64,000 bases of DNA from Acutalibacteraceae bacterium (GCA_045537915.1 JAZSQK010000010.1:5717-69716); one strand, 5' to 3'; shown: positions 2,441 through 41,400, numbered from the stretch's first letter. The notes: generated by a model not told the origin, from the sequence alone. Numbers and translations: made by a program.

Positions 2441-2474
2441 ATAAACGGCAAACGGAATTCCGTTTGCCGTTTAT
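2441..2474 (-). terminator. Rho-independent terminator at the end of the long minus-strand array
   Basis: Perfect palindrome ATAAACGGCAAACGG-AATT-CCGTTTGCCGTTTAT, followed on the minus strand by CTTTTC. Confidence 0.7.
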
Positions 2475-2492: not shown

Positions 2493-3755
2493 TTAGAAAA
2501 GTATTACAAGGAATTGTGATACAAGAACAACTGCTATCAGGGCTATCGGATAGGTTGCAGCATAAGCAGCGGCAACATCCTCTGTTCCTGCGGTTTTGAT
2601 AAGTGTTCCGAGGGCAGGTGTGCTTGTCATGCCACCGGTAATTGAACCGAGGTTGTTAAGCAGACTGAGCTTAAGCACATATTTTGCAAACAGATATCCG
2701 ATAATCATCGGAACTATAGTCATTACTATTCCGTAGACAAAGTACATCGGGTCAAAGTTTGCTACAAACTCTGCGCCTCCGGGAATTCCTGCACCAACGA
2801 GGAACAGCACAAGTCCTAATTCTCTGAAAAGTTTGAGGGTGCTCTGATTTGGCATAATGCTCACCGAGCCTACACGTCCAAAGTGTCCGAGGATGAGGCT
2901 TACAAGCAGACAGCCGCCCGTTGTGGTCAGCGAGAAACAGGTTCCGCTAAGTCCTTGGTTTGAGAGAGGTATCTTTATCTGACCTACAAATGTTCCAAGC
3001 ACTGCGGCAAGTGAAAAGGCCGCTATGCCCATATGGTCAAGTTCGAAAAGCTTGGCTACTACTTTTGCTTTATCATCTTCCTCCTTGACTACAAGTTTTG
3101 CTCTTTCTTCATCCATATTAGCTTTGCTGAGCTTAGGAATTATCTGAACAAAGAGGACAACTCCTATTACGCCGAAGATATACGCTATACCGTGGCCAAC
3201 CGAAACAAGACCTGTAAACTCCGGGGCAACGGTTGCCTTTGCTGCCGAAAAAGCAGGTGTTGATGTCAGTGAACCTGACAGCAATCCTACTATCATTGCT
3301 ACAAAGCCGTCCTGGCTTTCTATTGTTGCGCCATAGCCAACCAGTTCGCCTGCATAAATACAACCAGCTGCAGAAAGTCCGCCGGCGATAATGATTATAA
3401 GACCAAGCAGCACATAGGACTTAAAGTTCTTTTTGAAATTGCCAAAAAACTTTGGTCCTGCAATATAGCCTACAGAGGTCACAAAAAGCACAAGTCCGAG
3501 GCTTTCGATTATTGAAAGTCCGCCAGAGAAGTCATAGGGTTTTGCAGAGCCGCTAAAAAGAAGCTCTCCTCCATCCCCTATTCCAAAGAAAAGGGCTCCG
3601 AAGACAAGGGCTATTATAAAAACCCCTGCATCTCCAAGAGAAATGCCCTTTATTGTAATTCTTCCAAGGGCGTATCCTACAAAGAGGACCGAGAAAGCCA
3701 CAAATAAAAGGGTTGAAATATTACTTATAGAAATAACACCATTAAAAAGACTCAT
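2493..3755 (-). CDS. AAE-family (AspT/YidE/YbjL/SucE-like) anion transporter, short form; candidate succinate/C4-dicarboxylate exporter
   Basis: 420 aa and highly hydrophobic, with two homologous halves. The N-terminal GRITIKGISLGDAGVFIIALVFG is typical of the Asp-Al_Ex duplication. The central loop is only about 30 charged residues. Last gene of the mdh-fumC-hdr-flx-frd array. Confidence 0.6.
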   Translation of the reverse strand: MSLFNGVISISNISTLLFVAFSVLFVGYALGRITIKGISLGDAGVFIIALVFGALFFGIGDGGELLFSGSAKPYDFSGGLSIIESLGLVLFVTSVGYIAGPKFFGNFKKNFKSYVLLGLIIIIAGGLSAAGCIYAGELVGYGATIESQDGFVAMIVGLLSGSLTSTPAFSAAKATVAPEFTGLVSVGHGIAYIFGVIGVVLFVQIIPKLSKANMDEERAKLVVKEEDDKAKVVAKLFELDHMGIAAFSLAAVLGTFVGQIKIPLSNQGLSGTCFSLTTTGGCLLVSLILGHFGRVGSVSIMPNQSTLKLFRELGLVLFLVGAGIPGGAEFVANFDPMYFVYGIVMTIVPMIIGYLFAKYVLKLSLLNNLGSITGGMTSTPALGTLIKTAGTEDVAAAYAATYPIALIAVVLVSQFLVILF

Positions 3756-3776
3756 TTAAAAAGACTCCTTTTCGCC

Positions 3777-5375
3777 TTAAACCTTACGGGTATAGTCGGG
3801 AAGCAGCTTGGGCGATACGGTTGCAGTTTCGATTCCTGCAGACTTAATCTGGTTTTCAAACTCTTCAATATGTGAAAGGGTAAGTTTGCCTACCTTTACA
3901 TTTTTAGCCTTGGCAGCCGCATTCATACCTGCGCTTCTGCCGAAAACGATGATATCAAGAAGAGAGTTGCCCATAAGGCGATTTCTTCCGTGAATTCCTC
4001 CTACCGCTTCTCCTGCTACAAACAGATTTTCAACATTTGTAGTCATACAGTCAGAGCCGATATCAAGGCCGCCGTTCTGGTAGTGGAGTGTGGGGTAAAC
4101 AAGAATGGGCTCCTTACGAATGTCGATTCCGTATTTTTCAAACATTCTCCACATTGCAGGAATTCTCTTCATAATGGTTCCCTCTCCGCCGATCTTTTCA
4201 ATCATAGGAGTATCAAGCCATACGCCCTTGCCGTTGCCGGTTTCTACGCCGTTGTTTCTCTCGTTACATTCACGGATAATTGAGGCTGCAGAAACATCTC
4301 TGGTTTCGAGCGGATGCATAAACACCTCGCCCTTTTCATTAACCAGCTTTGCGCCCAGAGAGCGAACCTTCTCGGTAACAAGCGCACCGAAAATCTGCTC
4401 TGGATATGCAACACCTGTAGGATGATACTGCAGAGTTTCGGCATAAAGCAGCTTTGCGCCTACCCTGTAGCCAAGAACAAGGCCGTCAGCCGTTGCGCCG
4501 TAATGGTTAGAAGTCGGGAAGCCCTGATAGTGCATACGTCCTGCGCCGCCCGTTGCAATAATAACCGTTTTAGCTTTTGCAACAAGCAGTTCCTTGGTTT
4601 CCATATTCATAAGCACTGCGCCGGCAGCATTGCCGTTTTCATCCAAGATAAGCTCAACCGCAGCAGTAAAATCAACTACCGGAATATTGCGGTTAAAGAC
4701 CTCATCACGAAGGGTTCTCATTATTTCGGCACCCGAATAGTCCTTTGCGGCGTGCATACGCTTACGGGAGGTTCCTCCGCCGTGGGTTGTAACCATTGTG
4801 CCGTCGGCATCCTTATCGAACTCAACCCCTAAATTGCTTAGCCACTGAATTGCCTCTGGAGCATCGCAAACAAGCTTTGACAAAAGCTCTCTCTTTGCGG
4901 CAAAGTGACCGCCTCCGAAGGCATCTACAAAGTGGATTGCGGGAGAATCATTGGGCTTGTCGGCCGCCTGAATGCCGCCCTCGGCCATCATTGTGTTGGC
5001 ATCGCCTATACGAAGCTTGGTAACGATCATTACGTCTGCTCCGGCTTCGTTTGCCTCAATAGCAGCCGATGCGCCTGCTCCGCCGCCGCCGATTATAAGA
5101 ACATCGGTTTCATAATCGGGCGCCGAAAGGTCAACGCTTTCGGCAGTAATGCGGCTATGCGCCTGAAGAATTTCGGCTAGCTCCTTCGGCACCTTTTCTC
5201 CCTTGTTGGCGCCGATTTTAAGGACATCAAATTCTTCCTTTTTGTAGTCCGGATGGAAAGCCGCAAGAAGATCTTCCTTCTGCTTTGCTGTCATTCGGTC
5301 GGGCTCAAGAGCAATATTTTTTTCTCTTGCCGCTTCAACTGCAGCAATAGATTTCTGAAAATTTTCCGAATACAT
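3777..5375 (-). CDS. Soluble fumarate reductase/succinate dehydrogenase-type flavoprotein (FrdA/TfrA-like)
   Basis: DVLIIGGGGAGASAAIEA dinucleotide fold, LQYHPTG, LVTEKVRSLGA, TLHYQNGGL and LFVAGEAVGGIHGRNRLMGNSLLDIIVFGR match FAD_binding_2/succ_DH_flav_C motifs. About 90 aa of N-terminal extension. Confidence 0.75.
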   Translation of the reverse strand: MYSENFQKSIAAVEAAREKNIALEPDRMTAKQKEDLLAAFHPDYKKEEFDVLKIGANKGEKVPKELAEILQAHSRITAESVDLSAPDYETDVLIIGGGGAGASAAIEANEAGADVMIVTKLRIGDANTMMAEGGIQAADKPNDSPAIHFVDAFGGGHFAAKRELLSKLVCDAPEAIQWLSNLGVEFDKDADGTMVTTHGGGTSRKRMHAAKDYSGAEIMRTLRDEVFNRNIPVVDFTAAVELILDENGNAAGAVLMNMETKELLVAKAKTVIIATGGAGRMHYQGFPTSNHYGATADGLVLGYRVGAKLLYAETLQYHPTGVAYPEQIFGALVTEKVRSLGAKLVNEKGEVFMHPLETRDVSAASIIRECNERNNGVETGNGKGVWLDTPMIEKIGGEGTIMKRIPAMWRMFEKYGIDIRKEPILVYPTLHYQNGGLDIGSDCMTTNVENLFVAGEAVGGIHGRNRLMGNSLLDIIVFGRSAGMNAAAKAKNVKVGKLTLSHIEEFENQIKSAGIETATVSPKLLPDYTRKV

Positions 5376-5387
5376 AAACTTTCCTCC

Positions 5388-6062
5388 TTACTTCTCGATT
5401 TCTCTGGTATTATAGAGTTCTTTCATCTCATCTATCGGCTTGTTCATAAGAGCCTCAATAAGCTCATTAAAGTCGCCGTTTTTGATTTCCTTTACTCTAT
5501 CCTCAAGATGTCCGCAACCGGGCGCAAGATATTTGCCGTTGATTCTTCTGGCAAGCATTGCAACCTGAGGGTGCGAAATTCCTGCTGGGCATCTCGCTGA
5601 GCAAACGCCGCACATTACACAGTCAAAGGACTCCTCTGCGCACTTTTCAAAATCTCCACGCTGAGCATAGGCTATGTACTGCATAACGTTAAGCTTCTGT
5701 GTGCAGATCTTTGTACAGGCGTTACAGCCTACACAGGCATAAATTTCGGGATAAAGCTGCATCATAACCGTCTCGGTTACAGGAATTTTTTCAATGTCAT
5801 AAACCTGCTTTACAAGGGGGAAGAAGGGCAATGTTGCAATATACATATTGTCCTCAACCTTGGTCTGACAAGCAAGACAGGCCTTAAGCTCTCTGTCCCC
5901 TTTTATGCGATAAACAGTGGCACAGGCACCGCAGAAGCCGTTACGGCAACCGCAACCACGCACCAGCTGATATCCGGCATATTCCATAGCGGTCATAATC
6001 GTTAAATTTTCGGGCACTTCATACTTCTTGCCGAAAAGAAAAATGTTAACCATTTTTTCCAT
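5388..6062 (-). CDS. SdhB/FrdB-type iron-sulfur subunit (2Fe-2S plus two cubane-cluster motifs)
   Basis: CGCRNGFCGACATVY...C (plant-type 2Fe-2S as in SdhB), CVGCNACTKIC and CVMCGVCSARCP. Confidence 0.7.
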   Translation of the reverse strand: MEKMVNIFLFGKKYEVPENLTIMTAMEYAGYQLVRGCGCRNGFCGACATVYRIKGDRELKACLACQTKVEDNMYIATLPFFPLVKQVYDIEKIPVTETVMMQLYPEIYACVGCNACTKICTQKLNVMQYIAYAQRGDFEKCAEESFDCVMCGVCSARCPAGISHPQVAMLARRINGKYLAPGCGHLEDRVKEIKNGDFNELIEALMNKPIDEMKELYNTREIEK

Positions 6063-6074
6063 ATTACCTCTCCT

Positions 6075-6908
6075 TTAATACTCACTGGGAAGTTCTTCCA
6101 GCTCATCACAGCGGAAAACAGGTCCGTCTTTGCAAACATATTTAGAACCGACGTTGCATCTGCCGCACTTACCGACTCCACACTTCATTCGAAGCTCAAG
6201 AGTTGTGTAAACATTGGTTTTCTCAAAGCCGAGCGCTACAAGTCCCTCTAAAGTAAACTTTATCATTATAGGCGGTCCGCAAAGCACTGCAACCTTGTCG
6301 GTATCAAAGCCGAGTTCCTTTACAAAGTTGGGAACAAAGCCTACATGTCTGTCCCAGCCCTCCTGAGCATTATCAATAGTCAGGTGGACATTAACTCCCG
6401 CATCGGTCGACCATTCCTCAATTATTTCCTTGTAATCAAGAAGGTCGTCCTTGCTTCTTGAGCCGTATACTATATCGATTTTACCGTAACGGTCACGGTA
6501 GTGACGGCAATAGTTAATTACCGAACGAAGAGGCGCAAGGCCCACGCCACCCGCAATGAAAAGCAGATTTTTACCTGCGAACACATCATCAACAGGGAAA
6601 GGCTTTCCGTAGGGTCCTCTGATTGTAATCTGCTGACCTACCTCTGCCTGATGTAACCACTCGGTAACGCAACCGCACTTCTTTATGGAGAACTCCATAA
6701 ACTCTTCGTTTGTCGGAGAGGAGGTTATAGAGAACATTGCCTCGCCCACACCGGGTACCGAAAGCATAGCGCACTGACCTGGCATATGGTCGAATGCCTT
6801 TTTGCCGTCGGTTGTGACCACTCTGAAGGTTTTAATGTCAGGAGTGTCTATTCTGACATCAGTAATGACGCCAATCTTTGGAATTAAGGTTTCGTCGTAG
6901 TTATTCAT
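6075..6908 (-). CDS. flxA: FAD/NAD(P)H-binding oxidoreductase with C-terminal 2Fe-2S (FlxA / AsrB / hydrogenase-gamma / PyrK-like)
   Basis: FRVVT...PGQCAML (FAD barrel), LLFIAGGVGLAPLRS (NAD fold), CGPPIM and CGVGKCGRCNV...C cluster. Start trimmed to the ATG at 6908, which overlaps the upstream stop (ATGA). Confidence 0.7.
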   Translation of the reverse strand: MNNYDETLIPKIGVITDVRIDTPDIKTFRVVTTDGKKAFDHMPGQCAMLSVPGVGEAMFSITSSPTNEEFMEFSIKKCGCVTEWLHQAEVGQQITIRGPYGKPFPVDDVFAGKNLLFIAGGVGLAPLRSVINYCRHYRDRYGKIDIVYGSRSKDDLLDYKEIIEEWSTDAGVNVHLTIDNAQEGWDRHVGFVPNFVKELGFDTDKVAVLCGPPIMIKFTLEGLVALGFEKTNVYTTLELRMKCGVGKCGRCNVGSKYVCKDGPVFRCDELEELPSEY

Positions 6909-7930
6909 TTTCCAAGACCTCCAAGCTTCTTCATTACTTTTACTATATTCATAGAAATAGGACACCTTGAAAGGCAACGTCCGCAGCCCACACAGCTAAA
7001 CAGTCCGTCATTATTTTCGGGATAATAAACAAGCTTATGCATAAAGCGTTGACGGAAACGCTCCATCTGTGTATTTCGGTTGTTTCCGTGTGCCATTCTT
7101 GTAAAATCGGAATACATACAGGAATCCCAACATCTGTAGCGGATAACTCCCTTGCCTGTGTTGAAATCCTTAATGTCATAGCACTGGCAGGTAGGACAGA
7201 CAAAGGTACATGTTCCGCAACCGAGACAGGCTTCGGACAGCTCATTCCATTCAGGCGCATTAAAGAACTTATTTGTCTTACCGCCGCCGAAGGAATCTGT
7301 CTTAAGGTCCTTAAGAGGCAGTTTTTCCATAATGGCGGAAATTTTCTTTTTCATATTATCTGCGGCATTTTCAGAGCATTCCTCGGTAATATCCGAGAGT
7401 GTCTTTAAAAGGGCCTCTCCCTTTTCGGTATTAGCCTTTAAAAACAGTTCGCTTTCATTTTTCCATACGCTGATATCCCCTGCAGGTTCGGCAGGGTCAA
7501 TGCCGAAGGTTTTACAAAAACAGGTTTCGGCAGGTTTTGAACAAGCGACCGACACGAGTATGCCGTGTTCTCTCCTTGCCGCATAAAAGCTATCGACCGG
7601 CTCACTAAGGAACACTCTGTCGAGTATATCAAAGCTCTTTACATCACAGGCTCTGATTCCGAAAATCACAAAATCCTCGGTAGCGCTTCTTGTGTCGATA
7701 ACCTCGATATTTTTTCCCGAAGTCTTGAATTCCATCAGGTTTTCGGTCTGGGGGAAGAAGAAATCCTTGGGACTTCTTACGGTATTGAGGGCATTGCTCC
7801 AGGTTGTGCCCTCCTCCCACTTTTTGAAGGCGGCGGTGCCGTCATTCTGGTCTACAGGAAGATAAAGGGTGGCACTCTCGGCAATTCTTTCAAAAAGAGT
7901 ATTTACAGAGTCAAGAGAACATTTACGCAT
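6905..7930 (-). CDS. flxB: Fe-S protein, FlxB / AsrA / sulfhydrogenase-beta-like
   Basis: CLGCGTCTFVCPTCQCYD and CVGCGRCLSRCP motifs. Start trimmed to the ATG at 7930 (MRKCSLD), overlapping the flxC stop (ATGCGTAA). Confidence 0.65.
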   Translation of the reverse strand: MRKCSLDSVNTLFERIAESATLYLPVDQNDGTAAFKKWEEGTTWSNALNTVRSPKDFFFPQTENLMEFKTSGKNIEVIDTRSATEDFVIFGIRACDVKSFDILDRVFLSEPVDSFYAARREHGILVSVACSKPAETCFCKTFGIDPAEPAGDISVWKNESELFLKANTEKGEALLKTLSDITEECSENAADNMKKKISAIMEKLPLKDLKTDSFGGGKTNKFFNAPEWNELSEACLGCGTCTFVCPTCQCYDIKDFNTGKGVIRYRCWDSCMYSDFTRMAHGNNRNTQMERFRQRFMHKLVYYPENNDGLFSCVGCGRCLSRCPISMNIVKVMKKLGGLGK

Positions 7931-8921
7931 CGGTATTCCTCCTCTCAAAAGCCTCGCCGGGTTCGATATCCTCGGTGGTATAGTCGACAAGCGGCGCTCT
8001 GGAGCCTACCTCGGCTCCAGCCTGATATTCTCCGTAAAATTCATTTATATCCTTAATAAACTTGCGGTTTAAAAGATGTAGAGGAATATTCTGCGGACAA
8101 ACTCTTGAACATTCGCCACAGTCGGTACAACGTCCCGCAACATGATAGGCTCTGATAATATGGAACATCTTTTCTTCAAAGCTGTTTGCAGGAGATTTGT
8201 TTTCAACCCCCGAATCAGCGTTTCCAAAGACACACTTTTCGCAGGTACAGGCAGGACATACGTCACGACAGGCATTGCAGCGGATACAGCGTGAAAGCTC
8301 ATTCTGCCAGAAGGCAAATCTTTCTTCCGCCGTCATTGCCTCAAGTTTTGCAACCTCGTCAAAGCGGTTTGAATCCAGAATCTCGCCCTCCTCGCCGAGC
8401 AGCTCGTCATAGGCGACATGCTTTTTGCTCTTGCAGTTTAGGCATCTTTCGGCAAGAACATCCTTTATATCAATCAGAACAGGCTCATCATCATAAAGGG
8501 TTGTAACAGAAAGTTTATCCCCTACCGATTCTATCGAAGAGATTCCCTCCCCTGCTACCGCCTTTACCTTTGCTATATCAACCATTCCCTCACAGCCAAC
8601 GCCGACGGCATAGACCTTTTCTCTGTCAAAACGGTGCTCGGTCAGAAGCTGATTAAAGCTATATGTATCGCAGGGCTTTAAGAAAACGAGTATCTTACCC
8701 TCTGTTTTCTGGGTTTTTGAAACGAGATATTTTGAGAAGTTTGCTCCGCAAAAATCGTTCCATACAAAATTTTCTCTGATTTCTTGCTCGGTAGTGAAAA
8801 CGGCGGGTGTAATATCGTAATCGAACTCGCCCTTACTCCAACCGAGAATAGCGGTCACGGTTCCCTCTTTGAGTAAAGAAACCGCCCTTTCAACCAGTTG
8901 TTCACGGGTTACTTTTTGCAT
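7923..8921 (-). CDS. flxC: Fe-S protein, FlxC-like (4Fe-4S dicluster C-terminal half)
   Basis: CIRCNACRDVCPACTCEKC and CTDCGECSRVCPQNIP. Lies between the mvhD-like and flxB-like genes, as in flx clusters. Confidence 0.6.
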   Translation of the reverse strand: MQKVTREQLVERAVSLLKEGTVTAILGWSKGEFDYDITPAVFTTEQEIRENFVWNDFCGANFSKYLVSKTQKTEGKILVFLKPCDTYSFNQLLTEHRFDREKVYAVGVGCEGMVDIAKVKAVAGEGISSIESVGDKLSVTTLYDDEPVLIDIKDVLAERCLNCKSKKHVAYDELLGEEGEILDSNRFDEVAKLEAMTAEERFAFWQNELSRCIRCNACRDVCPACTCEKCVFGNADSGVENKSPANSFEEKMFHIIRAYHVAGRCTDCGECSRVCPQNIPLHLLNRKFIKDINEFYGEYQAGAEVGSRAPLVDYTTEDIEPGEAFERRNTDA

Positions 8922-9343
8922 CTCAGGTCCTCCAATCTCTTGTTTTCTCCAAGACCTGCTACCGTCTTTACAAAGTCATTCATAGTGGCTGCAAATTTTG
9001 CGCCCTCTGCCGCAGAAACCCACTCAACACGGGTTCTTTCCTTCTCAATTCCGAGAAAATCAAGCATTGAGAAGAGGGCGGTCATTCGGCGGCGTGTATA
9101 GTAGTTGCCCGAGGTGTAGTGACAGTCTCCCGGGTGGCAACCGCAGATTATAACTCCGTCTGCGCCCCTCTGGAATGCCCTAAGGACAAACATTGGGTTA
9201 ACACGACAAGAACAGGGTACTCTGATTATCTTAACATCGGCAGGATAATTAAGGCGGTTGTTTCCTGCAAGGTCGGCTCCGGCATAGGAGCACCAGTTAC
9301 AACAAAAAGCAACAATCAAGGGCTTATATTCATTTACTTGCAT
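8909..9343 (-). CDS. mvhD: MvhD/FlpD-family protein (methyl-viologen-reducing hydrogenase delta subunit-like; FlxD)
   Basis: IVAFCCNWCSYAGADLAG, IRVPCSCRVNP and ADGVIICGCHPGDCHY are the FlpD signature. Start trimmed to the ATG at 9343 (MQVNEYKPL), overlapping the hdrA stop (ATGCAAGTAA). Confidence 0.85.
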   Translation of the reverse strand: MQVNEYKPLIVAFCCNWCSYAGADLAGNNRLNYPADVKIIRVPCSCRVNPMFVLRAFQRGADGVIICGCHPGDCHYTSGNYYTRRRMTALFSMLDFLGIEKERTRVEWVSAAEGAKFAATMNDFVKTVAGLGENKRLEDLRCKK

Positions 9344-11328
9344 ATTGCATCTACCTCCGCCATAATCTGTCGGCTTGCAAAGCCTCTGAGGTCCATCGCT
9401 CCCGAAGGACAGGCAACCGTACAAGCACCGCAGCCCTGACAAACAGCAGGATTAACCACCGCTACCCTTCTGGTCTTGGTTGTTCTGTCGGGCATACGGA
9501 AATCCTTATCCTCATAGGAAATAGCGCCGTAAGGGCAAACTCTTTCGCAAGAGGAGCAGCCGTTACACATAAGCTCATTACTACTTGCTATACAGGGGTT
9601 GCCCATAAGCTTATCCTTGGCAAGAAGTCCTATTACCTTGGATGCCGCAGCGCCCGCCTGAGAAACAGTTTCGGGGATATCCTTCGGTCCCTGACAGGCT
9701 CCCGACAGGAAAACTCCCGCAGTCGGACTCTCAACCGGTCTGAGCTTGGGGTGAGCCTCGGTAAAGAAGTCATTTGTATCCATACTTGCAGTCAGCATTG
9801 TGGCTAACGGACGGGCCGATTTATCGGGCTCTATAGCCGCCGCTAAGACCACCAGATCGGCATCTATATGGAGCTGCTTGTTATTAAGAAGGTCTGAAGC
9901 CTGAACCAAAAGCTTATCTCCCTGAGGAGTTACCTTTCCGACCATTCCCTTTATGTATTTTACGCCATACTCTTCAACTGCACGACGGTAAAACTCATCA
10001 AAGTTCTTACCCGGAGTTCTTACATCTATATAGAATACATAAACCTCGGTATCGGGATATTTATCCCTTGTGAGCATTGCGTGTTTTGCAGTATACATAC
10101 AGCAGATTTTAGAGCAATACTCCTTTCCCTTCTCGGCGCAGGAATCACAGCGTGAACCCACACACTGAACAAAGACTATTGTATGGGGGTGCTTACCGTC
10201 AGATGGGCGTACAAGCTTTCCTGCAGAGGGTCCTGCCGCATTCGTAAGACGCTCAAACTCGAGAGAGGTAATAACATCCTTCGACTGACTGTAGGCAAAC
10301 TCGTCAAATTTATCAAGGCTAATCGGATTAAAGCCTGTCGCAACCACGATGGCGCCGTATTTTTCCTCTATATACTCGTCCTTCTGGGTATAATCTATAG
10401 CCCCTGCGGTACAAACTCTGGCGCAAAGGCCGCACTTTCCGTTTTTAAGCATATTACAGGCGTTCGGGTCAATAGTAGCAACCTTTGGAACTGCCTGTGC
10501 AAAGGGAATATAGATTGCGCTTCGGTTATCCATACCGAGATTAAACTCGTTAGGAATTTTCTTCATAGGACATTTTTCAACACAGGCTCCGCATCCTGTA
10601 CAAACGTCCTCTTTAACATAACGGGCATTCTTCTTGATTGTAACGTCAAAGTTACCAACAAAGCCCTTTATTTCAGATACCTCACTATAGGAGAAAATTC
10701 TGATTTTCTCATTCTGCGCAACATCAACCATTTTAGGTGTGAGGATACATGCCGCACAGTCAAGGGTCGGGAAGGTTTTGTCAAGCTGAGCCATCTTTCC
10801 GCCGATTGTGGGCTTTGTTTCAACTATATCAACAGGAAAACCTGCATCGGCAATATCAAGTGCAGTCTGAATACCTGCAATACCGCCACCGATAACAAGC
10901 GCCCTCTTTGTTACGGGAGATTCTCCAGGTGTAAGAGGTGTGTTAAGGTTAACCTTTGCTATTGCGGCTCTTCCGAGTATGATTGCCTTTTCGGTACCTG
11001 TTGCAATATCCTTATGTACCCAGGAGCACTGCTCACGGATATTGGCAATTTCAACCATATAAGGATTGAGTCCCGCAGCAGCGGCAGTCTTACGGAAGGT
11101 TGCCTCGTGCATTCTCGGAGAGCAGGAGCAGACAACGATTCCCGTAAGCTTATGCTCGGCAACCGCTTCCTTTATCATATCCTGTCCTGCCTGAGAACAC
11201 ATATACTGATAATTGGTGGAAAAGACGACGCCCGGCTCGTTTTTCAAGGCTTCAGACACTGCCTGTACATCTACAGTACCCGCAATATTGCTTCCGCACC
11301 AACATACAAAAACACCAACTCTTTGCAT
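9334..11328 (-). CDS. hdrA: Heterodisulfide reductase subunit A-like flavoprotein
   Basis: VGVFVCWCGSNIAGTVD, ALVIGGGIAGIQTALDIADAGFPV...GGKMAQLDKTFPTLDCAACILTPKM, and several CxxCxxCxxxCP ferredoxin motifs. 664 aa. Confidence 0.9.
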   Translation of the reverse strand: MQRVGVFVCWCGSNIAGTVDVQAVSEALKNEPGVVFSTNYQYMCSQAGQDMIKEAVAEHKLTGIVVCSCSPRMHEATFRKTAAAAGLNPYMVEIANIREQCSWVHKDIATGTEKAIILGRAAIAKVNLNTPLTPGESPVTKRALVIGGGIAGIQTALDIADAGFPVDIVETKPTIGGKMAQLDKTFPTLDCAACILTPKMVDVAQNEKIRIFSYSEVSEIKGFVGNFDVTIKKNARYVKEDVCTGCGACVEKCPMKKIPNEFNLGMDNRSAIYIPFAQAVPKVATIDPNACNMLKNGKCGLCARVCTAGAIDYTQKDEYIEEKYGAIVVATGFNPISLDKFDEFAYSQSKDVITSLEFERLTNAAGPSAGKLVRPSDGKHPHTIVFVQCVGSRCDSCAEKGKEYCSKICCMYTAKHAMLTRDKYPDTEVYVFYIDVRTPGKNFDEFYRRAVEEYGVKYIKGMVGKVTPQGDKLLVQASDLLNNKQLHIDADLVVLAAAIEPDKSARPLATMLTASMDTNDFFTEAHPKLRPVESPTAGVFLSGACQGPKDIPETVSQAGAAASKVIGLLAKDKLMGNPCIASSNELMCNGCSSCERVCPYGAISYEDKDFRMPDRTTKTRRVAVVNPAVCQGCGACTVACPSGAMDLRGFASRQIMAEVDAICK

Positions 11329-11342
11329 TAGTCCTTTCCTCC

Positions 11343-11729
11343 CTACTTAGTATATTTTCTGAACATGCTGACAAGCAGCTGTTGAGGTGTATCCCCATCA
11401 ACAATCTCAGGTATATTGTCGGCAGTTAAATGATTTTCGCCCTGTTTTCTTACTGCGGCAAGGCGGACTGCCTCAACCAGCTTTGCAGGTTCGACACCTC
11501 TGGGGCATCTTTCAATACATGCAAAACAGGAAAGACATTTATATAACGACTCTGATTTAAGCAGAGGTTCAATATCGCCGCTTTCGACCATATTTACGAA
11601 CTGATGAGGATGGTATTCCATCTCGTCATATGCGGGACAGGTTGCCGAACACTTTCCGCAGCGCATACATTTTCTGGGATTAACTCCGCTTATGCGCACA
11701 ATTTCTTCCTGAAGATACTTATTTTCCAT
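11343..11729 (-). CDS. hdrC: Heterodisulfide reductase subunit C-like (2x 4Fe-4S)
   Basis: CMRCGKCSATCP and CLSCFACIERCP. 128 aa. Overlaps hdrB by 11 nt. Confidence 0.85.
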   Translation of the reverse strand: MENKYLQEEIVRISGVNPRKCMRCGKCSATCPAYDEMEYHPHQFVNMVESGDIEPLLKSESLYKCLSCFACIERCPRGVEPAKLVEAVRLAAVRKQGENHLTADNIPEIVDGDTPQQLLVSMFRKYTK

Positions 11730-12513
11730 TTGTATCCTCCTTTACACCGAGGGCCTGTGCCAAAAGCTCGGTAAAATATACAACCGGAATGTCTGTGCCG
11801 TTTTTAATAAGGTTAAAGCGGCAAAGAGGACATGCGGTTATTATCATTTCGGCGCCCTGTGCCTTTGCATTTTCAACTACTGCATTGCTGTTCTTTTTAG
11901 CAAGTTCAGGGCTCTCTGTAGATATGTATCCGCCGCAGCATTCGTTGCGTCTTGCATAGATTACTGCCTCGGCGCCGAGCGCTCTGATAAAATCCTCCAT
12001 AATGGTAGGATTTTCGGGGTCGTCCATCTTCATAACACCGCTCGGTCTTAAAAGCAGGCAGCCGTAATATGCTGCGATTTTTTTGCCCTTAAAGGAATTT
12101 ACAACCCTTTCTTTAAGGGTATCAAAGCCAACCATATCACGGAGCATTTCGAGATAATGTAAAACCTCGGTCTGACCGTTATATTCTGCCTCATCAGACA
12201 TATATCTGTTTACCTTGTCGGCAAACTCTTTGTTATCTGACAAGGCATAATTTGTCTGCTTTATTACATTGTGACAGGCCGAGCATACCGTAACAAGCGG
12301 CTGTTCCTTATCATATGCAGCTTTAAGCGCACGAACAGATGAAAGCTTTGTTGCTATCTCGTCTGTAGCGGTTGTAAACACACCGCCGCAGCACTGCCAA
12401 TTTTCAATTTCTTCCAGAGTAACACCCAGAGCCTCTGCCGATTTACGAGCATAGATATCAAGGTCTTTAGCCTTATTCTTAAGGGTGCAGCCCGGAAAAT
12501 AACTAACCTTCAT
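11719..12513 (-). CDS. hdrB: Heterodisulfide reductase subunit B-like (two CCG domains)
   Basis: Two Cys-rich CCG motifs (WQCCGGVF...CSACH and NECCGGYIS...ACPLC). Confidence 0.85.
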   Translation of the reverse strand: MKVSYFPGCTLKNKAKDLDIYARKSAEALGVTLEEIENWQCCGGVFTTATDEIATKLSSVRALKAAYDKEQPLVTVCSACHNVIKQTNYALSDNKEFADKVNRYMSDEAEYNGQTEVLHYLEMLRDMVGFDTLKERVVNSFKGKKIAAYYGCLLLRPSGVMKMDDPENPTIMEDFIRALGAEAVIYARRNECCGGYISTESPELAKKNSNAVVENAKAQGAEMIITACPLCRFNLIKNGTDIPVVYFTELLAQALGVKEDTNGK

Positions 12514-12527
12514 TAGATTACCTCCGA

Positions 12528-13904
12528 TTACGCCATCTCTTCGGGATGGAAAACTTCATCAAATCTCTCGGCAGTTAAAAATCCGAGTTCAACACAGGCC
12601 TCTTTGAGAGAAATATTATCCTTAAAGGCCTTTTTTGCTGTCTTAGCGGCATTTTCATAACCGATATAGGGGTTAAGCGCCGTAACAAGCATTAAGGAGT
12701 TGTGCAGATTATGGTGCATCTTCTCCTTATTCGCCTTAATTCCCACCGCACAATTCTTATTAAATGAGGTTATTGCCTCAGCCAAAAGTCTTGCTGACTG
12801 GAGGAAGTTGTAAATGCATACAGGCATAAATACATTCAGTTCAAAATTGCCCTGAGAAGCCGCCAGGCCGACCGCAACATCGTTACCCATTACCTGAACC
12901 GCAACCATAGTTACCGCTTCGCACTGTGTGGGATTTACCTTGCCGGGCATTATAGAAGAACCGGGTTCGTTCTCGGGAATAAATATCTCGCCGAGTCCGT
13001 CACGTGGACCTGATGCTAACCAACGGATATCGTTTGCTATCTTCATCATATCGCAGGCGAGAGCCTTGATTGCGCCGTGGGCAAAAACAAGCTCATCCTT
13101 TGAGGTTAATGAATGGAATTTATTTGCCGCAGTTATAAAGGGCTTTCCTGTGATTTTTGCAACCTCTGCCGCTACCCCTGTATCAAAGCCGTCGGGCGCA
13201 TTAAGTCCGGTTCCGACAGCAGTTCCACCGAGGGCAAGTTCATAAAGAGGCTCTATAGAGCGCTTTACAAGCTCGATATCCTTCTCTAAACTTGAACGCC
13301 AACCGCTTATCTCCTGGCTGAACTTTATGGGTGTTGCATCCTGCAAATGTGTTCTTCCGCTTTTTACTATTCCTTCATTCTCAGCCTCAAGTCTTTTAAA
13401 GGTTTGGATAAGCTCCTTTGCCGCAGGAATAAGCTTATCCTCCAGAATAAGCACAGCAGCAATATGCATTGCGGTTGGGAAGGTATCGTTTGAGGACTGG
13501 CTCATATTTACATCATCGTTAGGATGAAGAAGCTTTTTGCCTAATATCTGATTACCTCTGTTGGCGATAACCTCGTTGGCATTCATATTGGACTGGGTTC
13601 CCGAGCCTGTCTGCCAGACAACCAGCGGAAAATGTCCGTTCAGTTTGCCCTCTCTTATTTCGTCACAGGCAACCGAGATTGCCTTCATTTTTTCCTCGGT
13701 CATCTTTTCGGGACGAAGGGCGTGATTGGCAATAGACGCCGCCTTCTTAAGAATTCCGAATGCATTGATTATTTCGGCCGGCATGGTTTCGATTCCAACG
13801 CCGATTTCGAAGTTTTCGTGGCTTCTCTGTGTCTGAGCCGCCCAAAGACGATCTGCGGGGACCTTCATTTCTCCCATTGAGTCATGTTCGATACGATATT
13901 CCAT
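12528..13904 (-). CDS. fumC: Class II fumarate hydratase
   Basis: GSSIMPGKVNPTQCEA lyase-1 signature. MEYRIEHDSMGEMKVPADRLWAAQTQRS N-terminus. 458 aa. Confidence 0.95.
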   Translation of the reverse strand: MEYRIEHDSMGEMKVPADRLWAAQTQRSHENFEIGVGIETMPAEIINAFGILKKAASIANHALRPEKMTEEKMKAISVACDEIREGKLNGHFPLVVWQTGSGTQSNMNANEVIANRGNQILGKKLLHPNDDVNMSQSSNDTFPTAMHIAAVLILEDKLIPAAKELIQTFKRLEAENEGIVKSGRTHLQDATPIKFSQEISGWRSSLEKDIELVKRSIEPLYELALGGTAVGTGLNAPDGFDTGVAAEVAKITGKPFITAANKFHSLTSKDELVFAHGAIKALACDMMKIANDIRWLASGPRDGLGEIFIPENEPGSSIMPGKVNPTQCEAVTMVAVQVMGNDVAVGLAASQGNFELNVFMPVCIYNFLQSARLLAEAITSFNKNCAVGIKANKEKMHHNLHNSLMLVTALNPYIGYENAAKTAKKAFKDNISLKEACVELGFLTAERFDEVFHPEEMA

Positions 13905-13922
13905 TTATTGTAACCTCACTTA

Positions 13923-14864
13923 TTAAAACTGAATACTGTTGATTACCTGCTTGAGACTCTCTGCGCTCTTGTGTAAAGCGGCAACTTCACTGTCGTTTAG
14001 CGGAAGCATTACCTTGCCGTTAACCGTCTTATTTCCCACAACGGTCAAAAGGCTAAGACAGACATCGTCTATTCCGTACTCACCGTGAAGCATGGTTGAA
14101 ACGGTCAGGGTGGTATCAAGATTGCTGAGCAGACATTTGCAAACGTGGCAAACCGACACCGATACTGCGTAATAGGTGGCTCCCTTGCGCTGAATTACAC
14201 GGGCGCCCGATTTGCGAACGTAGTTTTCAACCTCTTCGATATCAAAATTAGGATATTCCTCATCTGTTACAACTGCTTTGCTGAAATCTGTTATCGGAAC
14301 ATTCGAAATGTTGGCAATAGACCAGGGAATAAATGAGGAATCGCCGTGCTCTCCAAGCACATATGCGTGAACATTCTTCTGGTTGACCGAATAGTATTCA
14401 GCTACCCTTGCACGAAGCCTTGCGGTATCCAGAATGGTTCCCGAACCGATTACACGGTTTTCGGGAATTCCCGAGCATTTGCAAAAAACATATGTGAGAA
14501 CGTCAACGGGATTGCTTACTATTATGTAGGTTGCATCAGGTGCGTGTTTTACTATCTGAGAGGCAACCGCTTTAATTACGTTTACATTGGTCTGGGCAAG
14601 GTCAAGCCTTGACTGGCCCGGCTTTCTGGCAAGACCCGAAGTAATAATAACTATGTCTGAATTTTCGGCATCCGCATATGTACCTGCATAAACAAAGGTG
14701 GGATTGCAGAAAGGAACACCCTGTCTGATATCCAGAGCCTCTCCCAAGGATTTTTCTTCATTTATGTCGATCATAACTATTTCGGAGGCAATTCCCATAA
14801 TGGTCAAGGTGTAGGCAATGGTTGAGCCTACGCTTCCCGAGCCGACTATTGTAATTTTATTCAT
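13923..14864 (-). CDS. mdh: Malate dehydrogenase (LDH-like MDH subfamily)
   Basis: KITIVGSGSVGST Rossmann fold. The substrate-discriminating position reads GLARKPGQSRLDL, with Arg as in MDH (PRKPGMSR) rather than the Gln of LDH. GEHGDS active-site His. Confidence 0.75.
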   Translation of the reverse strand: MNKITIVGSGSVGSTIAYTLTIMGIASEIVMIDINEEKSLGEALDIRQGVPFCNPTFVYAGTYADAENSDIVIITSGLARKPGQSRLDLAQTNVNVIKAVASQIVKHAPDATYIIVSNPVDVLTYVFCKCSGIPENRVIGSGTILDTARLRARVAEYYSVNQKNVHAYVLGEHGDSSFIPWSIANISNVPITDFSKAVVTDEEYPNFDIEEVENYVRKSGARVIQRKGATYYAVSVSVCHVCKCLLSNLDTTLTVSTMLHGEYGIDDVCLSLLTVVGNKTVNGKVMLPLNDSEVAALHKSAESLKQVINSIQF

Positions 14865-17741: not shown

Positions 17742-17786
17742 ATCCCGTTACATCCTTTCAAGAAATAAAGCTAATCTTTTCACAGA

Positions 17787-18038
17787 TTATAATTTTGCCA
17801 ATACCTCTTTGTTGAAGAACTCCTCAGCTGTGTCGGGCGATACCGAATGAAAGTTATCGTCAACCGAAACGCAAACGCCCTCCTGACATCTTCCCATGCA
17901 GAAAGTGCCGCCAAGATCCACCTGTTCTTCAAGCTTATGCTGAGCAATTAAATCCTTAAGCTTTTCGACCACCTGTCTGGAGCCTTTTACGTGACAAGAG
18001 CTTCCGATACATACAGTAATTTTCATTTGATAATTCAT
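17787..18038 (-). CDS. Thioredoxin-like [2Fe-2S] ferredoxin (NuoE/HfsA-like)
   Basis: KITVCIGSSCHVKGS...GGTFCMGRCQEG has the four Cys in the NuoE-type spacing. 83 aa. Confidence 0.7.
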   Translation of the reverse strand: MNYQMKITVCIGSSCHVKGSRQVVEKLKDLIAQHKLEEQVDLGGTFCMGRCQEGVCVSVDDNFHSVSPDTAEEFFNKEVLAKL

Positions 18039-41398: not shown

Positions 41399-41400
41399 AA

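What the first reader, a model, noticed from the sequence alone, without database searches (positions are those of the whole stretch)
2493..14864. Reductive TCA branch physically fused to an HdrABC-FlxABCD module: candidate NADH-dependent, electron-bifurcating soluble fumarate reductase
Seen in sequence:
- Twelve co-directional genes are packed with gaps of 21 nt or less, or with overlaps.
- The order is mdh (Arg-type specificity loop ARKPG), fumC, hdrB (2 CCG motifs), hdrC, hdrA, mvhD/flxD, flxC, flxB, flxA (NAD/FAD/2Fe-2S), an SdhB-like Fe-S protein, a FrdA-like flavoprotein and an AAE transporter.
- No membrane anchor (FrdC/D-like) or cytochrome b gene is present in the array.

Established knowledge:
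- FlxABCD-HdrABC of Desulfovibrio is an NADH-oxidising Hdr complex proposed to perform flavin-based electron bifurcation.
- Methanothermobacter TfrAB is a thiol:fumarate reductase whose TfrB fuses an FrdB-like part to HdrB-like CCG domains.
- Fumarate/succinate is a high-potential couple, suitable as the exergonic branch of a bifurcation.

Inference:
- This locus encodes a self-contained OAA -> malate -> fumarate -> succinate -> export route.
- In it, fumarate reduction would be driven by NADH through Flx-Hdr, possibly coupled to ferredoxin reduction, instead of by a quinone-linked membrane enzyme.
- I know of no biochemically characterised Hdr/Flx-linked fumarate reductase in Firmicutes.
- It would explain succinate formation in quinone- and cytochrome-free Clostridia.
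Basis: partly seen in the sequence, partly recalled or inferred. Interest (0 to 1): 0.88.

Follow-up and report, generated by a model that had tools for sequence, protein, structure and literature searches.

The report
Hdr/Flx-linked soluble fumarate reductase operon
This gut Clostridia locus is a well-conserved "succinate operon" that most likely lets a quinone-free bacterium reduce fumarate with NADH and make reduced ferredoxin as well; the idea was already published for a related bacterium and has not been tested biochemically.

Summary
Twelve co-directional minus-strand genes (14864 to 2493) encode an LDH-like malate dehydrogenase, class II fumarase, HdrB, HdrC, HdrA, MvhD/FlxD, FlxC, FlxB, FlxA, a [2Fe-2S]+2x[4Fe-4S] protein, a FrdA-like flavoprotein and an AAE-family transporter. 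Gaps are 21 nt or less, or the genes overlap. No redox subunit has a membrane segment.

The flavoprotein keeps every fumarate-reductase catalytic residue, lacks the covalent-FAD histidine, and folds like E. coli FrdA. HdrA aligns end to end with the bifurcating methanogen HdrA.

The order fumC-hdrBCA-mvhD-flxCBA-frdBA is complete and colinear in 50 of 53 related species genomes with enough flank, including Ruminococcus flavefaciens and Yeguia hominis. In environmental relatives, FrdBA sits next to Hdr genes in 32 of 35 loci, and often next to a ferredoxin-dependent 2-oxoacid oxidoreductase.

The reading as an NADH-driven, probably ferredoxin-reducing soluble fumarate reductase is therefore the best explanation. 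It is not new: the same "succinate operon" and the same hypothesis were published for Pseudoclostridium thermosuccinogenes (2019/2020), and for tubeworm symbionts. I found no biochemical proof.

New here:
- the breadth of the operon in gut Oscillospirales;
- the modular Hdr-FrdBA core;
- recurrent adjacency to an H2-sensor/hydrogenase/Rex cluster.

The parts
18113..18141 (-). Promoter-like site (TTGATA-17-TATAAT), the only strong candidate upstream of the whole co-directional run. A Rex-operator-like palindrome lies at 18158-18175.
   Evidence: 11 of 12 matches. A consensus match only. The Rex-like site is not significant window-wide.
17787..18038 (-). Small thioredoxin-like [2Fe-2S] ferredoxin, first gene of the H2-sensor module.
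   Evidence: PF01257, 1.8e-8. Orthologues sit next to hydS in L046, L052, L053 and L055.
16065..17741 (-). HydS-type sensory [FeFe]-hydrogenase with a C-terminal PAS domain.
   Evidence: Fe_hyd_lg_C 3.6e-39, PAS_9, FeS. The 3' end overlaps the next gene by 8 nt.
14900..16072 (-). PP2C/SpoIIE-type phosphatase, partner of HydS. It ends 35 nt before mdh with no terminator between them.
   Evidence: The same junction is seen in L016.
13923..14864 (-). LDH-like malate dehydrogenase (oxaloacetate to malate), inferred from Arg at the substrate-specificity position.
   Evidence: Present upstream of fumC in 45 of 53 related loci.
12528..13904 (-). Class II fumarate hydratase FumC (malate to fumarate).
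   Evidence: TIGR00979 708.6 bits, cut-off 664.75.
11719..12513 (-). HdrB-like subunit. It has two complete CCG motifs, and all 10 of its cysteines are motif cysteines.
   Evidence: PF02754 x2; full-length alignment to methanogen HdrB; equal score to SdhE/MfrE (152.6 bits) and HdrB (150 bits)..
11343..11729 (-). HdrC-like 2x[4Fe-4S] subunit.
   Evidence: TIGR03290 3.8e-17.
9334..11328 (-). HdrA, the FAD/Fe-S subunit that is the bifurcation site in methanogen Hdr.
   Evidence: 675 bits; residues 3-661 align to 5-648 of 5ODC_A..
8909..9343 (-). MvhD/FlxD-like [2Fe-2S] connector.
   Evidence: PF02662 1.5e-54. The most conserved gene of the operon, median 91% identity.
7923..8921 (-). FlxC-like Fe-S protein.
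   Evidence: Fer4_8 and related domains.
6905..7930 (-). FlxB-like Fe-S protein (AsrA / sulfhydrogenase beta-like).
   Evidence: PF17179 6.8e-30; ShyB 4.7e-56.
6075..6908 (-). FlxA-like NAD(P)H-binding FAD/[2Fe-2S] subunit, the presumed electron entry point.
   Evidence: NAD_binding_1, FAD_binding_6, DHODB_Fe-S_bind; AsrB/ShyC-like.
5388..6062 (-). Fumarate reductase Fe-S subunit (FrdB/TfrB N-terminal-like). It has 12 invariant Cys: one [2Fe-2S] motif plus two CxxCxxCxxxC motifs.
   Evidence: Naturally fused to the flavoprotein in P0122.
3777..5375 (-). Fumarate reductase flavoprotein. It has an 88-residue N-terminal extension, no Succ_DH_flav_C domain and no covalent-FAD histidine.
2493..3755 (-). 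AAE-family (Asp-Al_Ex x2) membrane transporter, the presumed succinate exporter.
   Evidence: C. glutamicum SucE is an AAEx-family succinate exporter (PMC7419537). Present downstream in 47 of 68 related loci.
2441..2474 (-). Strong bidirectional intrinsic terminator that closes the unit.
   Evidence: 15-16 bp stem, 7 GC pairs.

Best explanation
The locus encodes a complete cytoplasmic route from oxaloacetate to exported succinate. Its last step is catalysed by a soluble, quinone-independent fumarate reductase (FrdBA) wired to an HdrABC-MvhD core, with FlxABC as the NAD(P)H-oxidising input module.

Proposed electron path:
1. NADH reduces FlxA (FAD, [2Fe-2S]).
2. Electrons pass through the FlxB/FlxC Fe-S clusters and the FlxD/MvhD [2Fe-2S] cluster to the HdrA FAD.
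3. At the HdrA FAD the electron pair is split.
4. The high-potential electron runs through HdrC and the HdrB non-cubane clusters into FrdB ([4Fe-4S] x2, [2Fe-2S]), then to the non-covalent FAD of FrdA and on to fumarate.
5. The low-potential electron leaves through the ferredoxin-like domains of HdrA to ferredoxin.

Net reaction: 2 NADH + fumarate + oxidised Fd give 2 NAD+ + succinate + reduced Fd. Reduced ferredoxin is then re-oxidised by a hydrogenase or Rnf. Succinate leaves through the AAE transporter.

Shown here: gene content, intact cofactor and catalytic motifs, solubility, and deep conservation of the Hdr-FrdBA linkage.

Inferred: a physical complex, NADH as donor, bifurcation to ferredoxin, direct Fe-S wiring without a thiol intermediate, and the direction of flux.
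For: Gene content and tight packing.

Flavoprotein:
- It retains the E. coli FrdA catalytic set: H232/T244/E245/R248/R287/H355/R390 correspond to H318/T334/E335/R338/R359/H431/R466.
- It keeps the Glu49-type residue.
- His44 is replaced by Asn, so FAD is probably non-covalent, as in soluble fumarate reductases. These residues are invariant in the family.
- The AF2 model has pLDDT 89.3. Its best PDB match is E. coli FrdA 1kf6_A (E 3e-36, TMq 0.71).
- The nearest curated family is TfrA.

The Fe-S subunit is fused to the flavoprotein in P0122. HdrA is 675 bits and full length against the structurally defined bifurcating HdrA. HdrB has both CCG motifs. There are no membrane segments.

Synteny: 50 of 53 related species genomes have the complete colinear set. 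In a more distant environmental clade, 32 of 35 loci have Hdr genes next to frdBA, and 16 of 35 also have a ferredoxin-dependent 2-oxoacid oxidoreductase.

A ferredoxin-dependent-type [FeFe]-hydrogenase and/or Rex are recurrent neighbours.

Literature:
- The equivalent operon of P. thermosuccinogenes was about 4-fold higher in expression under CO2 limitation (1% versus 20% CO2), though this was not statistically significant for every subunit (PMC7282089).
- High H2 abolishes succinate formation in that organism (same paper).
- R. flavefaciens makes less succinate when a methanogen removes H2 (PMC7174568).

Thermodynamics (my own calculation from standard potentials): NADH -320 mV, fumarate +30 mV and Fd about -450 mV give roughly -40 kJ per reaction.
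Against: - No biochemical or structural datum exists for any member in the literature I could search.
- A close FrdBA pair (L029, 83% identical) and a fused FrdB-FrdA (L083) occur without Hdr/Flx within the DNA available. FrdBA may therefore be able to work with another donor.
- HdrB keeps a complete disulfide-reducing site, so a thiol/disulfide intermediate is not excluded.
- NADH versus NADPH cannot be read from FlxA.
- The source genome outside these 64 kb was not available. A conventional quinol:fumarate reductase, menaquinone synthesis, Rnf or hydrogenases elsewhere could not be checked.
- Transcription as one unit is inferred only from spacing and terminator positions.
Confidence: 0.65

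Rival explanations
1. The complex is a plain, non-bifurcating NAD(P)H:fumarate oxidoreductase. Flx-Hdr serves only as an electron wire, no ferredoxin is reduced, and the large free-energy drop is wasted, as in the five-subunit soluble NADH-fumarate reductase of Hydrogenobacter thermophilus.
For: A soluble multi-subunit NADH-dependent fumarate reductase exists and is described as irreversible (Miura 2008, as summarised in PMC13147460). A relative of FrdBA is paired simply with a NuoF-like NADH-binding subunit in L084/L085, which shows that the module can be fed by a simple NADH dehydrogenase.
Against: HdrA is conserved end to end with the bifurcating methanogen enzyme, including both ferredoxin-like domains. 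Keeping seven extra Fe-S/flavin subunits under strong purifying selection (HdrA 88% and MvhD 91% median identity) is hard to justify for a simple wire. The co-location with ferredoxin-consuming 2-oxoacid oxidoreductases (16 of 35 loci) and ferredoxin-type hydrogenases points to a ferredoxin product.
Confidence: 0.15
2. Two separate enzymes communicate through a diffusible thiol/disulfide couple. Flx-Hdr reduces a disulfide (a small molecule or a DsrC-like protein) while bifurcating to ferredoxin. FrdBA then re-oxidises the thiol to reduce fumarate, as methanogens do with Mvh-Hdr plus TfrAB.
For: HdrB has both intact CCG motifs. TfrA is the nearest curated family. The published models for P. 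thermosuccinogenes and Endoriftia leave room for thiols or a DsrC-like carrier.
Against: In TfrB the thiol-oxidising CCG domains are part of the reductase. Here FrdB has no CCG domain and the operon has only one CCG protein, so the reductase has no evident thiol-oxidation site. No candidate carrier gene lies in the operon. In many relatives hdrC-hdrB-frdB-frdA are immediate neighbours, as expected for one split TfrAB-like assembly.
Confidence: 0.08
3. The system runs in the oxidative direction. Succinate plus reduced ferredoxin are confurcated to NADH (followed by fumarate to malate to oxaloacetate), and the AAE protein imports succinate.
For: Hdr-type and Frd/Sdh-type enzymes are reversible in principle. 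The gene set is symmetrical with respect to direction.
Against: Carriers include classical succinate producers (R. flavefaciens loci L070 and L077; P. thermosuccinogenes). The flavoprotein has the Glu typical of fumarate reductases at the FrdA-E49 position. The AAE relative SucE is an exporter. Oxidation would spend low-potential ferredoxin to make NADH, which has no obvious benefit in a fermenter.
Confidence: 0.05
4. The flavoprotein acts on a different substrate. It might be an L-aspartate oxidase (NadB) or a reductase for another unsaturated acid, with mdh/fumC only neighbours.
For: NadB shares the same catalytic residues and scores 270 bits. Like the window protein, short family members of about 400 residues lack the C-terminal domain, and they score similarly to NadB and TfrA models.
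Against: The NadB score is far below its cut-off (452.75). An obligatory Fe-S partner, even fused to the flavoprotein, is not a NadB trait. There is no nadA/nadC nearby. fumC is linked in 50 of 53 genomes.
Confidence: 0.04

Closest known systems
'Succinate operon' of Pseudoclostridium thermosuccinogenes (CDQ83_RS03365-03315; Koendjbiharie & van Kranenburg 2019 preprint; PMC7282089)
   Same: The gene content and order are the same as described: fumarate hydratase, a seven-gene Flx-Hdr block, two fumarate reductase genes and a putative succinate transporter. Both are quinone-free Clostridia. The published hypothesis is the same: fumarate reduction coupled to ferredoxin reduction.
   Different: The window adds an LDH-like mdh in front and, unusually, an H2-sensor module directly upstream. 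It comes from an uncultured ruminant-gut Oscillospirales lineage.
FlxABCD-HdrABC of Desulfovibrio vulgaris (Ramos et al. 2015)
   Same: All seven subunit types are present, each with the expected domains. NADH is the proposed donor and HdrA the proposed bifurcation site.
   Different: The gene order is hdrB-hdrC-hdrA-flxD-flxC-flxB-flxA rather than flxABCD-hdrABC. The proposed acceptor in Desulfovibrio is a DsrC-type disulfide. Here a dedicated fumarate reductase pair is encoded in the same operon and no DsrC-like gene is present.
Thiol:fumarate reductase TfrAB plus Mvh-Hdr of methanogens
   Same: The flavoprotein's nearest curated family is TfrA. The TfrB model is matched piecewise by FrdB (positions 19-94), HdrC (124-221) and HdrB (262-487), so FrdB+HdrC+HdrB together resemble a split TfrB. 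The overall chemistry (bifurcating Hdr plus fumarate as final sink) is the same.
   Different: It is not a member. The TfrA score is 348 against a cut-off of 718. The C-terminal domain is missing and an 88-residue N-terminal extension is added. CCG domains are on a separate HdrB. The donor is NAD(P)H through Flx rather than H2 through Mvh. No CoM/CoB thiol carrier is expected in a Clostridium.
hdr-flx-kor-tfrAB cluster of Endoriftia and other tubeworm symbionts (PMC6315080, PMC11636981)
   Same: An AB-type soluble fumarate reductase is co-located with Hdr-Flx, and the same bifurcation model was proposed. The environmental relatives found here (L119, L125, L127, L128) have that same kor-interleaved layout.
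   Different: There the cluster serves autotrophic CO2 fixation (rTCA) and includes 2-oxoglutarate:ferredoxin oxidoreductase. Here it serves fermentation, with mdh, fumC and an exporter.
Membrane quinol:fumarate reductase / succinate dehydrogenase (complex II, e.g. E. coli FrdABCD)
   Same: The flavoprotein fold and catalytic residues are shared. The Fe-S subunit has an N-terminal [2Fe-2S] domain.
   Different: There are no anchor subunits and no quinone site. There is no covalent-FAD histidine and no C-terminal flavoprotein domain. The Fe-S subunit has two four-Cys motifs instead of the [3Fe-4S] signature.

Membership tests
FlxABCD-HdrABC NADH dehydrogenase/heterodisulfide reductase | HdrA, HdrB (two CCG motifs) and HdrC homologues encoded together | tested here: met
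   HdrA 675 bits to 5ODC_A; HdrB full length with both CCG motifs; HdrC matches TIGR03290.
FlxABCD-HdrABC NADH dehydrogenase/heterodisulfide reductase | FlxD (MvhD-like), FlxA (NAD(P)H/FAD/[2Fe-2S]) and FlxB/FlxC Fe-S proteins adjacent to hdr | tested here: met
   PF02662; PF00175 + PF00970 + PF10418; PF17179 and Fer4 families. The match is by domain content only. No Flx-specific curated model exists in the libraries searched.
FlxABCD-HdrABC NADH dehydrogenase/heterodisulfide reductase | NADH oxidation coupled to reduction of ferredoxin and a high-potential acceptor | not testable with these tools
   This needs an anaerobic enzyme assay.
P. thermosuccinogenes-type succinate operon (Flx-Hdr-linked fumarate reductase) | Fumarate hydratase + seven Flx-Hdr genes + two-gene soluble FR + putative succinate transporter in one co-directional cluster | tested here: met
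   Window, compared with the description in PMC7282089. The same layout is found in 50 of 53 related genomes.
P. thermosuccinogenes-type succinate operon (Flx-Hdr-linked fumarate reductase) | Sequence orthology to CDQ83_RS03315-03365 | not tested
The single genome-contig scan returned only the 80 closest loci.
Thiol:fumarate reductase TfrAB | TfrA-type flavoprotein reaching the curated score, with the C-terminal domain | tested here: not met
   NF004900 348 bits against a cut-off of 718; only model positions 6-427 of 546 are matched; no PF02910.
Thiol:fumarate reductase TfrAB | TfrB: one polypeptide joining FrdB-like Fe-S domains to CCG domains | tested here: not met
   FrdB has no CCG domain. 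The CCG domains are on a separate HdrB. The TfrB model is matched in three pieces by three proteins.
Quinol:fumarate reductase / succinate:quinone reductase (complex II) | Flavoprotein with the conserved His/Arg catalytic set | tested here: met
   alignment to E. coli FrdA; invariant columns; fold match.
Quinol:fumarate reductase / succinate:quinone reductase (complex II) | Covalent 8-alpha-histidyl FAD (His44 in E. coli FrdA) | tested here: not met
   the aligned residue is Asn (..DANTMMAEGG..).
Quinol:fumarate reductase / succinate:quinone reductase (complex II) | Membrane anchor subunit(s) with a quinone site | tested here: not met
   no hydrophobic segments in any redox subunit; no anchor gene in the 64 kb. 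The rest of the genome was not available.
L-aspartate oxidase NadB | Reaches the nadB curated score; stand-alone flavoprotein in a nadA/nadC context | tested here: not met
   TIGR00551 270 bits against a cut-off of 452.75. There is an obligatory adjacent or fused Fe-S subunit and no nad genes nearby.
Malate dehydrogenase (LDH-like group) | Arg at the substrate-discriminating loop position (Gln in LDH) | tested here: met
   the loop is GLARKPGQSR, and the Arg is kept in all but one operon-linked orthologue. Caveat: the NCBIfam L-LDH models are also passed.
AAE (aspartate:alanine exchanger) family dicarboxylate exporters such as SucE | Two Asp-Al_Ex membrane repeats | tested here: met
   The central TrkA-C domains of the roughly 560-residue members are absent (420 residues). 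Succinate as substrate is inferred from context and from SucE (PMC7419537).

The most novel reading that the evidence does not exclude
Fumarate would be the first non-thiol terminal acceptor of an Hdr-type bifurcating enzyme. The HdrB non-cubane clusters would act purely as an electron relay into FrdB, with no disulfide intermediate. The operon would be one half of an H2- and NADH-sensing electron-sink switch. The HydS-PP2C sensor (here directly upstream) and Rex (in relatives) would tune it against the neighbouring ferredoxin-dependent hydrogenase. In that arrangement, the exergonic reduction of fumarate drives the otherwise uphill NADH-to-H2 route, or ion pumping by Rnf, in quinone-free gut and rumen Clostridia, including the cellulolytic R. 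flavefaciens.
Probability: 0.3. Interest if true: 0.75.

Novelty: new member of a known kind. Interest (0 to 1): 0.5.

Why it matters
If the mechanism is right, it explains how quinone- and cytochrome-free Clostridia make succinate and still conserve energy from the large NADH-to-fumarate potential drop. These include abundant rumen and gut fibre degraders. It would also add fumarate to the short list of acceptors for flavin-based electron bifurcation. That bears on hydrogen and methane budgets in the rumen, on succinate cross-feeding in the gut, and on engineering succinate producers.

The survey here gives three practical points:
- Cultured carriers exist for a direct test.
- The conserved core is Hdr plus FrdBA, with Flx only one of several input modules.

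The central idea itself is already in the literature.

Tried and rejected
- I looked for a biochemical characterisation with seven literature searches and found none. The 2019 preprint and Miura 2008 are not held.
- A metagenome scan with the PP2C protein, meant to count how often the sensor precedes mdh, found no relatives.
The SdhB-like fold of FrdB therefore rests on weak sequence matches, its cysteine pattern and its fusion to the flavoprotein.
- A Rex operator search gave one well-placed hit at 18158-18175, but the count (3 against 1.8 expected) is not significant.
- A named-reference phylogeny of the flavoprotein against FrdA/SdhA/TfrA/NadB/AprA could not be built because no named reference sequences can be imported. 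I used curated HMM scores, catalytic residues and fold comparison instead.
- NadB, AprA-type and complex II membership were considered and rejected (see the membership table).
- A scan of the rest of the window for men genes, frdCD, rnf or PEP carboxykinase found only housekeeping genes. The whole genome could not be examined.

Full report
**1. What is in the sequence**

Between 2493 and 14864 the minus strand carries twelve co-directional genes. Pfam and NCBIfam assign them as follows:
- an Ldh-family dehydrogenase (13923-14864);
- class II fumarase (12528-13904; TIGR00979 708.6 bits, above its cut-off);
- HdrB with two CCG domains (11719-12513);
- HdrC (11343-11729);
- HdrA (9334-11328);
- MvhD/FlxD (8909-9343);
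- two Fe-S proteins of FlxC and FlxB type (7923-8921, 6905-7930);
- an NAD(P)H/FAD/[2Fe-2S] protein of FlxA type (6075-6908);
- a 224-residue Fe-S protein (5388-6062);
- a 532-residue FAD_binding_2 flavoprotein (3777-5375);
- a 420-residue transporter with two Asp-Al_Ex repeats (2493-3755).

With the likely ATG starts for three genes, every junction is an overlap or a gap of at most 21 nt. A hydropathy scan finds no membrane segment in any redox subunit.

**2. The flavoprotein and its Fe-S partner**

Aligned to E. coli FrdA, the flavoprotein keeps the substrate-binding and proton-delivery residues: H318, T334/E335/R338, R359, H431 and R466, equivalent to H232, T244/E245/R248, R287, H355 and R390. 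It also keeps the Glu of the FrdA-E49 position. The histidine that carries covalent FAD is replaced by Asn.

These residues are invariant in an alignment of family members down to 38% identity. There is no Succ_DH_flav_C domain. Instead the family has a conserved N-terminal extension of about 88 residues.

An AlphaFold model is confident (pLDDT 89.3, pTM 0.90). Its best match among solved structures is E. coli FrdA (1kf6_A, E 3e-36, TMq 0.71), with about 449 alignment columns for the 532-residue model.

Among curated families the best score is to thiol:fumarate reductase TfrA (348 bits), ahead of SdhA/FrdA (279) and NadB (270). All three are below their cut-offs. A representative 42% identical to the window protein passes the TfrA cut-off.

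The Fe-S protein has twelve invariant cysteines: one C-x4-C-x2-C-x17-C motif and two CxxCxxCxxxC motifs. This predicts one [2Fe-2S] and two [4Fe-4S] clusters rather than the [3Fe-4S] cluster of quinone-linked enzymes. In one representative (P0122) it is fused to the N-terminus of the flavoprotein, a natural fusion that argues for a heterodimer.

**3. The Hdr and Flx parts**

HdrA aligns from residue 3 to 661 with the structurally characterised bifurcating HdrA of a methanogen (5ODC_A, 675 bits). All its domains are therefore present, including the inserted and C-terminal ferredoxin-like domains.

HdrB aligns full length with methanogen HdrB, and all ten of its cysteines are the CCG-motif cysteines. 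HdrB scores equally well against the SdhE/MfrE 'anchor' of type E fumarate reductases (152.6 bits) and against HdrB (150 bits).

The NCBIfam TfrB model is hit in three consecutive pieces: by FrdB (model positions 19-94), HdrC (124-221) and HdrB (262-487). FrdB+HdrC+HdrB thus look like a TfrB split into three genes. No bacterial Flx-Hdr or Hdr-linked fumarate reductase appears among solved structures.

**4. Conservation**

The 80 best are 74-93% identical to the flavoprotein. Nearly all come from gut or rumen Clostridia labelled Oscillospiraceae, Acutalibacteraceae, Ruminococcus and similar names. They include R. flavefaciens MAGs and the isolate Yeguia hominis NSJ-40.

| Set examined | Result |
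|---|---|
| 53 loci with at least 9.6 kb upstream of frdA | 50 have fumC-hdrB-hdrC-hdrA-mvhD-flxC-flxB-flxA-frdB-frdA complete and colinear |
| Same 53 loci | 45 also have mdh upstream |
| 68 loci with enough downstream sequence | 47 have the AAE gene |

Median identity to the window is highest for MvhD (91%), HdrA (88%), FrdB (85%), FumC (84%) and FrdA (82%).

The exceptions are informative. L029 (83% identical) has only a CitMHS-type transporter gene followed by frdB-frdA, with no Hdr/Flx within 10 kb.

**5. More distant relatives**

Looking up representatives at 40-59% identity, and scanning metagenomes with one of them, gave a second, environmental clade. Among 35 loci with at least 3.5 kb upstream:
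- all have frdB next to frdA;
- 32 have Hdr/MvhD genes within 10 kb;
- 16 also have a four-subunit 2-oxoacid:ferredoxin oxidoreductase;
- only 6 have flxA/B.

Recurrent layouts are:
- kor-hdrA-mvhD-hdrC-hdrB-frdB-frdA;
- hdrB..kor-hdrA-mvhD-flxCBA-frdBA, the layout described for tubeworm symbionts;
- plain hdrC-hdrB-frdB-frdA.

Further out, FrdBA is paired with a NuoF-like NADH-binding subunit (L084/L085) or stands alone.

The conserved core is therefore Hdr plus FrdBA. Flx is one of several electron-input modules. The frequent company of a ferredoxin-consuming enzyme fits ferredoxin as a product.

**6. Surroundings in the window**

The co-directional run continues upstream of mdh with three more genes: a PP2C phosphatase (14900-16072; 35-nt gap, no terminator), a HydS-type sensory [FeFe]-hydrogenase with a PAS domain (16065-17741), and a small [2Fe-2S] ferredoxin (17787-18038). 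The only strong terminators are at 18287-18316 and 2441-2474. The best promoter-like site is at 18141-18113.

In relatives the same sensor module, a ferredoxin-dependent-type [FeFe]-hydrogenase of about 474 residues, and the NADH-sensing repressor Rex lie next to the operon:
- The hydrogenase gene ends about 40 nt upstream of mdh in L001; partial hydrogenase 3' ends lie at the same upstream edge in L030, L006, L026, L039 and L024.
- An aae-rex-fdx-hydS-pp2c-hydA2 arrangement lies downstream in L052; L053 has rex-fdx-hydS-pp2c-hydA2 without the aae gene.
- Rex is adjacent in 16 of the 80 loci, including upstream of fumC in the R. flavefaciens-type loci, although those four matches are weak (27-29% identity).

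The window itself lacks hydA2 and rex. It has an IS200 remnant just downstream (2083-2361), so a local rearrangement is likely. This linkage is circumstantial. It fits the physiology: R. flavefaciens makes less succinate when a methanogen keeps H2 low (PMC7174568), and H2 affects succinate formation in P. thermosuccinogenes (PMC7282089).

**7. Mechanism**

The best-supported model has these steps:
1. NAD(P)H is oxidised at FlxA.
2. Electrons pass through FlxB/C and FlxD to the HdrA flavin.
3. One electron descends through HdrC and HdrB into FrdB and the FrdA flavin, and on to fumarate.
4. The other electron is raised to ferredoxin.

By my own calculation from standard potentials the overall reaction is exergonic by about 40 kJ. 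Because FrdB has no CCG domain and the operon has only one CCG protein, direct Fe-S wiring is more likely than a thiol shuttle, but it is not shown.

The rivals are a non-bifurcating NADH:fumarate reductase, a thiol-mediated two-enzyme system, oxidative operation, and another substrate. They are weighed in their own sections of this report.

**8. Comparison with what is known, and novelty**

The same cluster was named the 'succinate operon' in Pseudoclostridium thermosuccinogenes. It was proposed to couple fumarate reduction to ferredoxin reduction through Flx-Hdr, and it showed an approximately 4-fold increase in expression under CO2 limitation, not statistically significant for every subunit (PMC7282089 and its reference 15).

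An equivalent proposal exists for tfrAB next to hdr-flx-kor in tubeworm symbionts (PMC6315080, PMC11636981). A 2026 review still treats it as a suggestion (PMC13147460).

I found no enzyme assay or structure. The window is thus a new member of a kind that is known as a prediction.

What this analysis adds:
- the scale of its distribution in gut and rumen Oscillospirales;
- the definition of Hdr-FrdBA as the conserved core with exchangeable input modules;
- the distinguishing features of the flavoprotein: non-covalent FAD, an N-terminal extension, and no C-terminal domain;
- the recurrent neighbourhood of H2-sensor, hydrogenase and Rex genes.

**9. Verdict**

- Interest: 0.5. The open question is important and directly testable in cultured carriers, but a specialist would already know the hypothesis.
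- Most novel reading not excluded: direct Hdr-to-Frd wiring inside an H2/NADH-sensing electron-sink switch. Probability about 0.3.

Noticed in passing
window 14900-18038 (-): A [2Fe-2S] ferredoxin, a HydS-type sensory [FeFe]-hydrogenase with a PAS domain, and a PP2C phosphatase lie directly upstream of mdh (35-nt gap, no terminator). The ferredoxin-dependent hydrogenase gene that follows this module in relatives (L052, L053) is missing here, as is rex; in L001 a hydrogenase of that type ends about 40 nt upstream of mdh.
   Followed up: partly
window 18158-18175: A Rex-operator-like palindrome (ATGTTAAAAAAATAACAA on the minus strand, 2 mismatches) lies just upstream of the -35 box of the best promoter-like site. 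The hit count in the window is not above chance.
   Followed up: partly
window 2083-2361 (-) and 1868-1954 (+): A truncated IS200-type Y1 transposase ORF (92 residues, matching positions 2-62 of a 121-position model) and a tRNA-Leu(TAA) lie immediately downstream of the operon terminator. This hints at a past rearrangement at this boundary.
   Followed up: no
L029 8079-11605: A Congzhengia MAG has a CitMHS-family transporter gene followed by frdB-frdA (83% identical to the window FrdA), with no Hdr or Flx genes within 10 kb on either side. The reductase pair may be able to use another electron donor, or its partners are encoded elsewhere.
   Followed up: partly
L084/L085 9366-12891: In a contig that also carries cytochrome c, DsrE-like and rhodanese genes, frdB-frdA (47% identical) is followed by a NuoF-like subunit (Complex1_51K, NADH_4Fe-4S). 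This suggests a three-subunit soluble NADH:fumarate reductase variant.
   Followed up: no
L082, L090, L092-L094, L154; L119, L125, L127, L128: Environmental relatives place a four-subunit 2-oxoacid:ferredoxin oxidoreductase inside or next to the hdr-frdBA cluster, with or without flxABC. This is the rTCA-type layout reported for tubeworm symbionts.
   Followed up: partly
L137, L138, L122, L153, L166/L167: Some environmental loci carry three or more HdrA-like paralogues in a row upstream of mvhD-(hdrCB)-frdBA. Their roles are unknown.
   Followed up: no
window 39707-43053 (-): Two class I Glu/Gln-type aminoacyl-tRNA synthetase genes (563 and 550 residues) sit in tandem.
   Followed up: no
window 60557-60802 (-) and 25587-25729 (-): A T-box leader lies upstream of a PLP-dependent enzyme gene (59222-60457). 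A ribosomal protein L10 leader is also present. Both are ordinary regulatory RNAs.
   Followed up: no
window 22961-24319 (-) and 49563-50681 (-): Two sizeable ORFs (452 and 372 residues) have no Pfam match at E 1e-8 or better.
   Followed up: no
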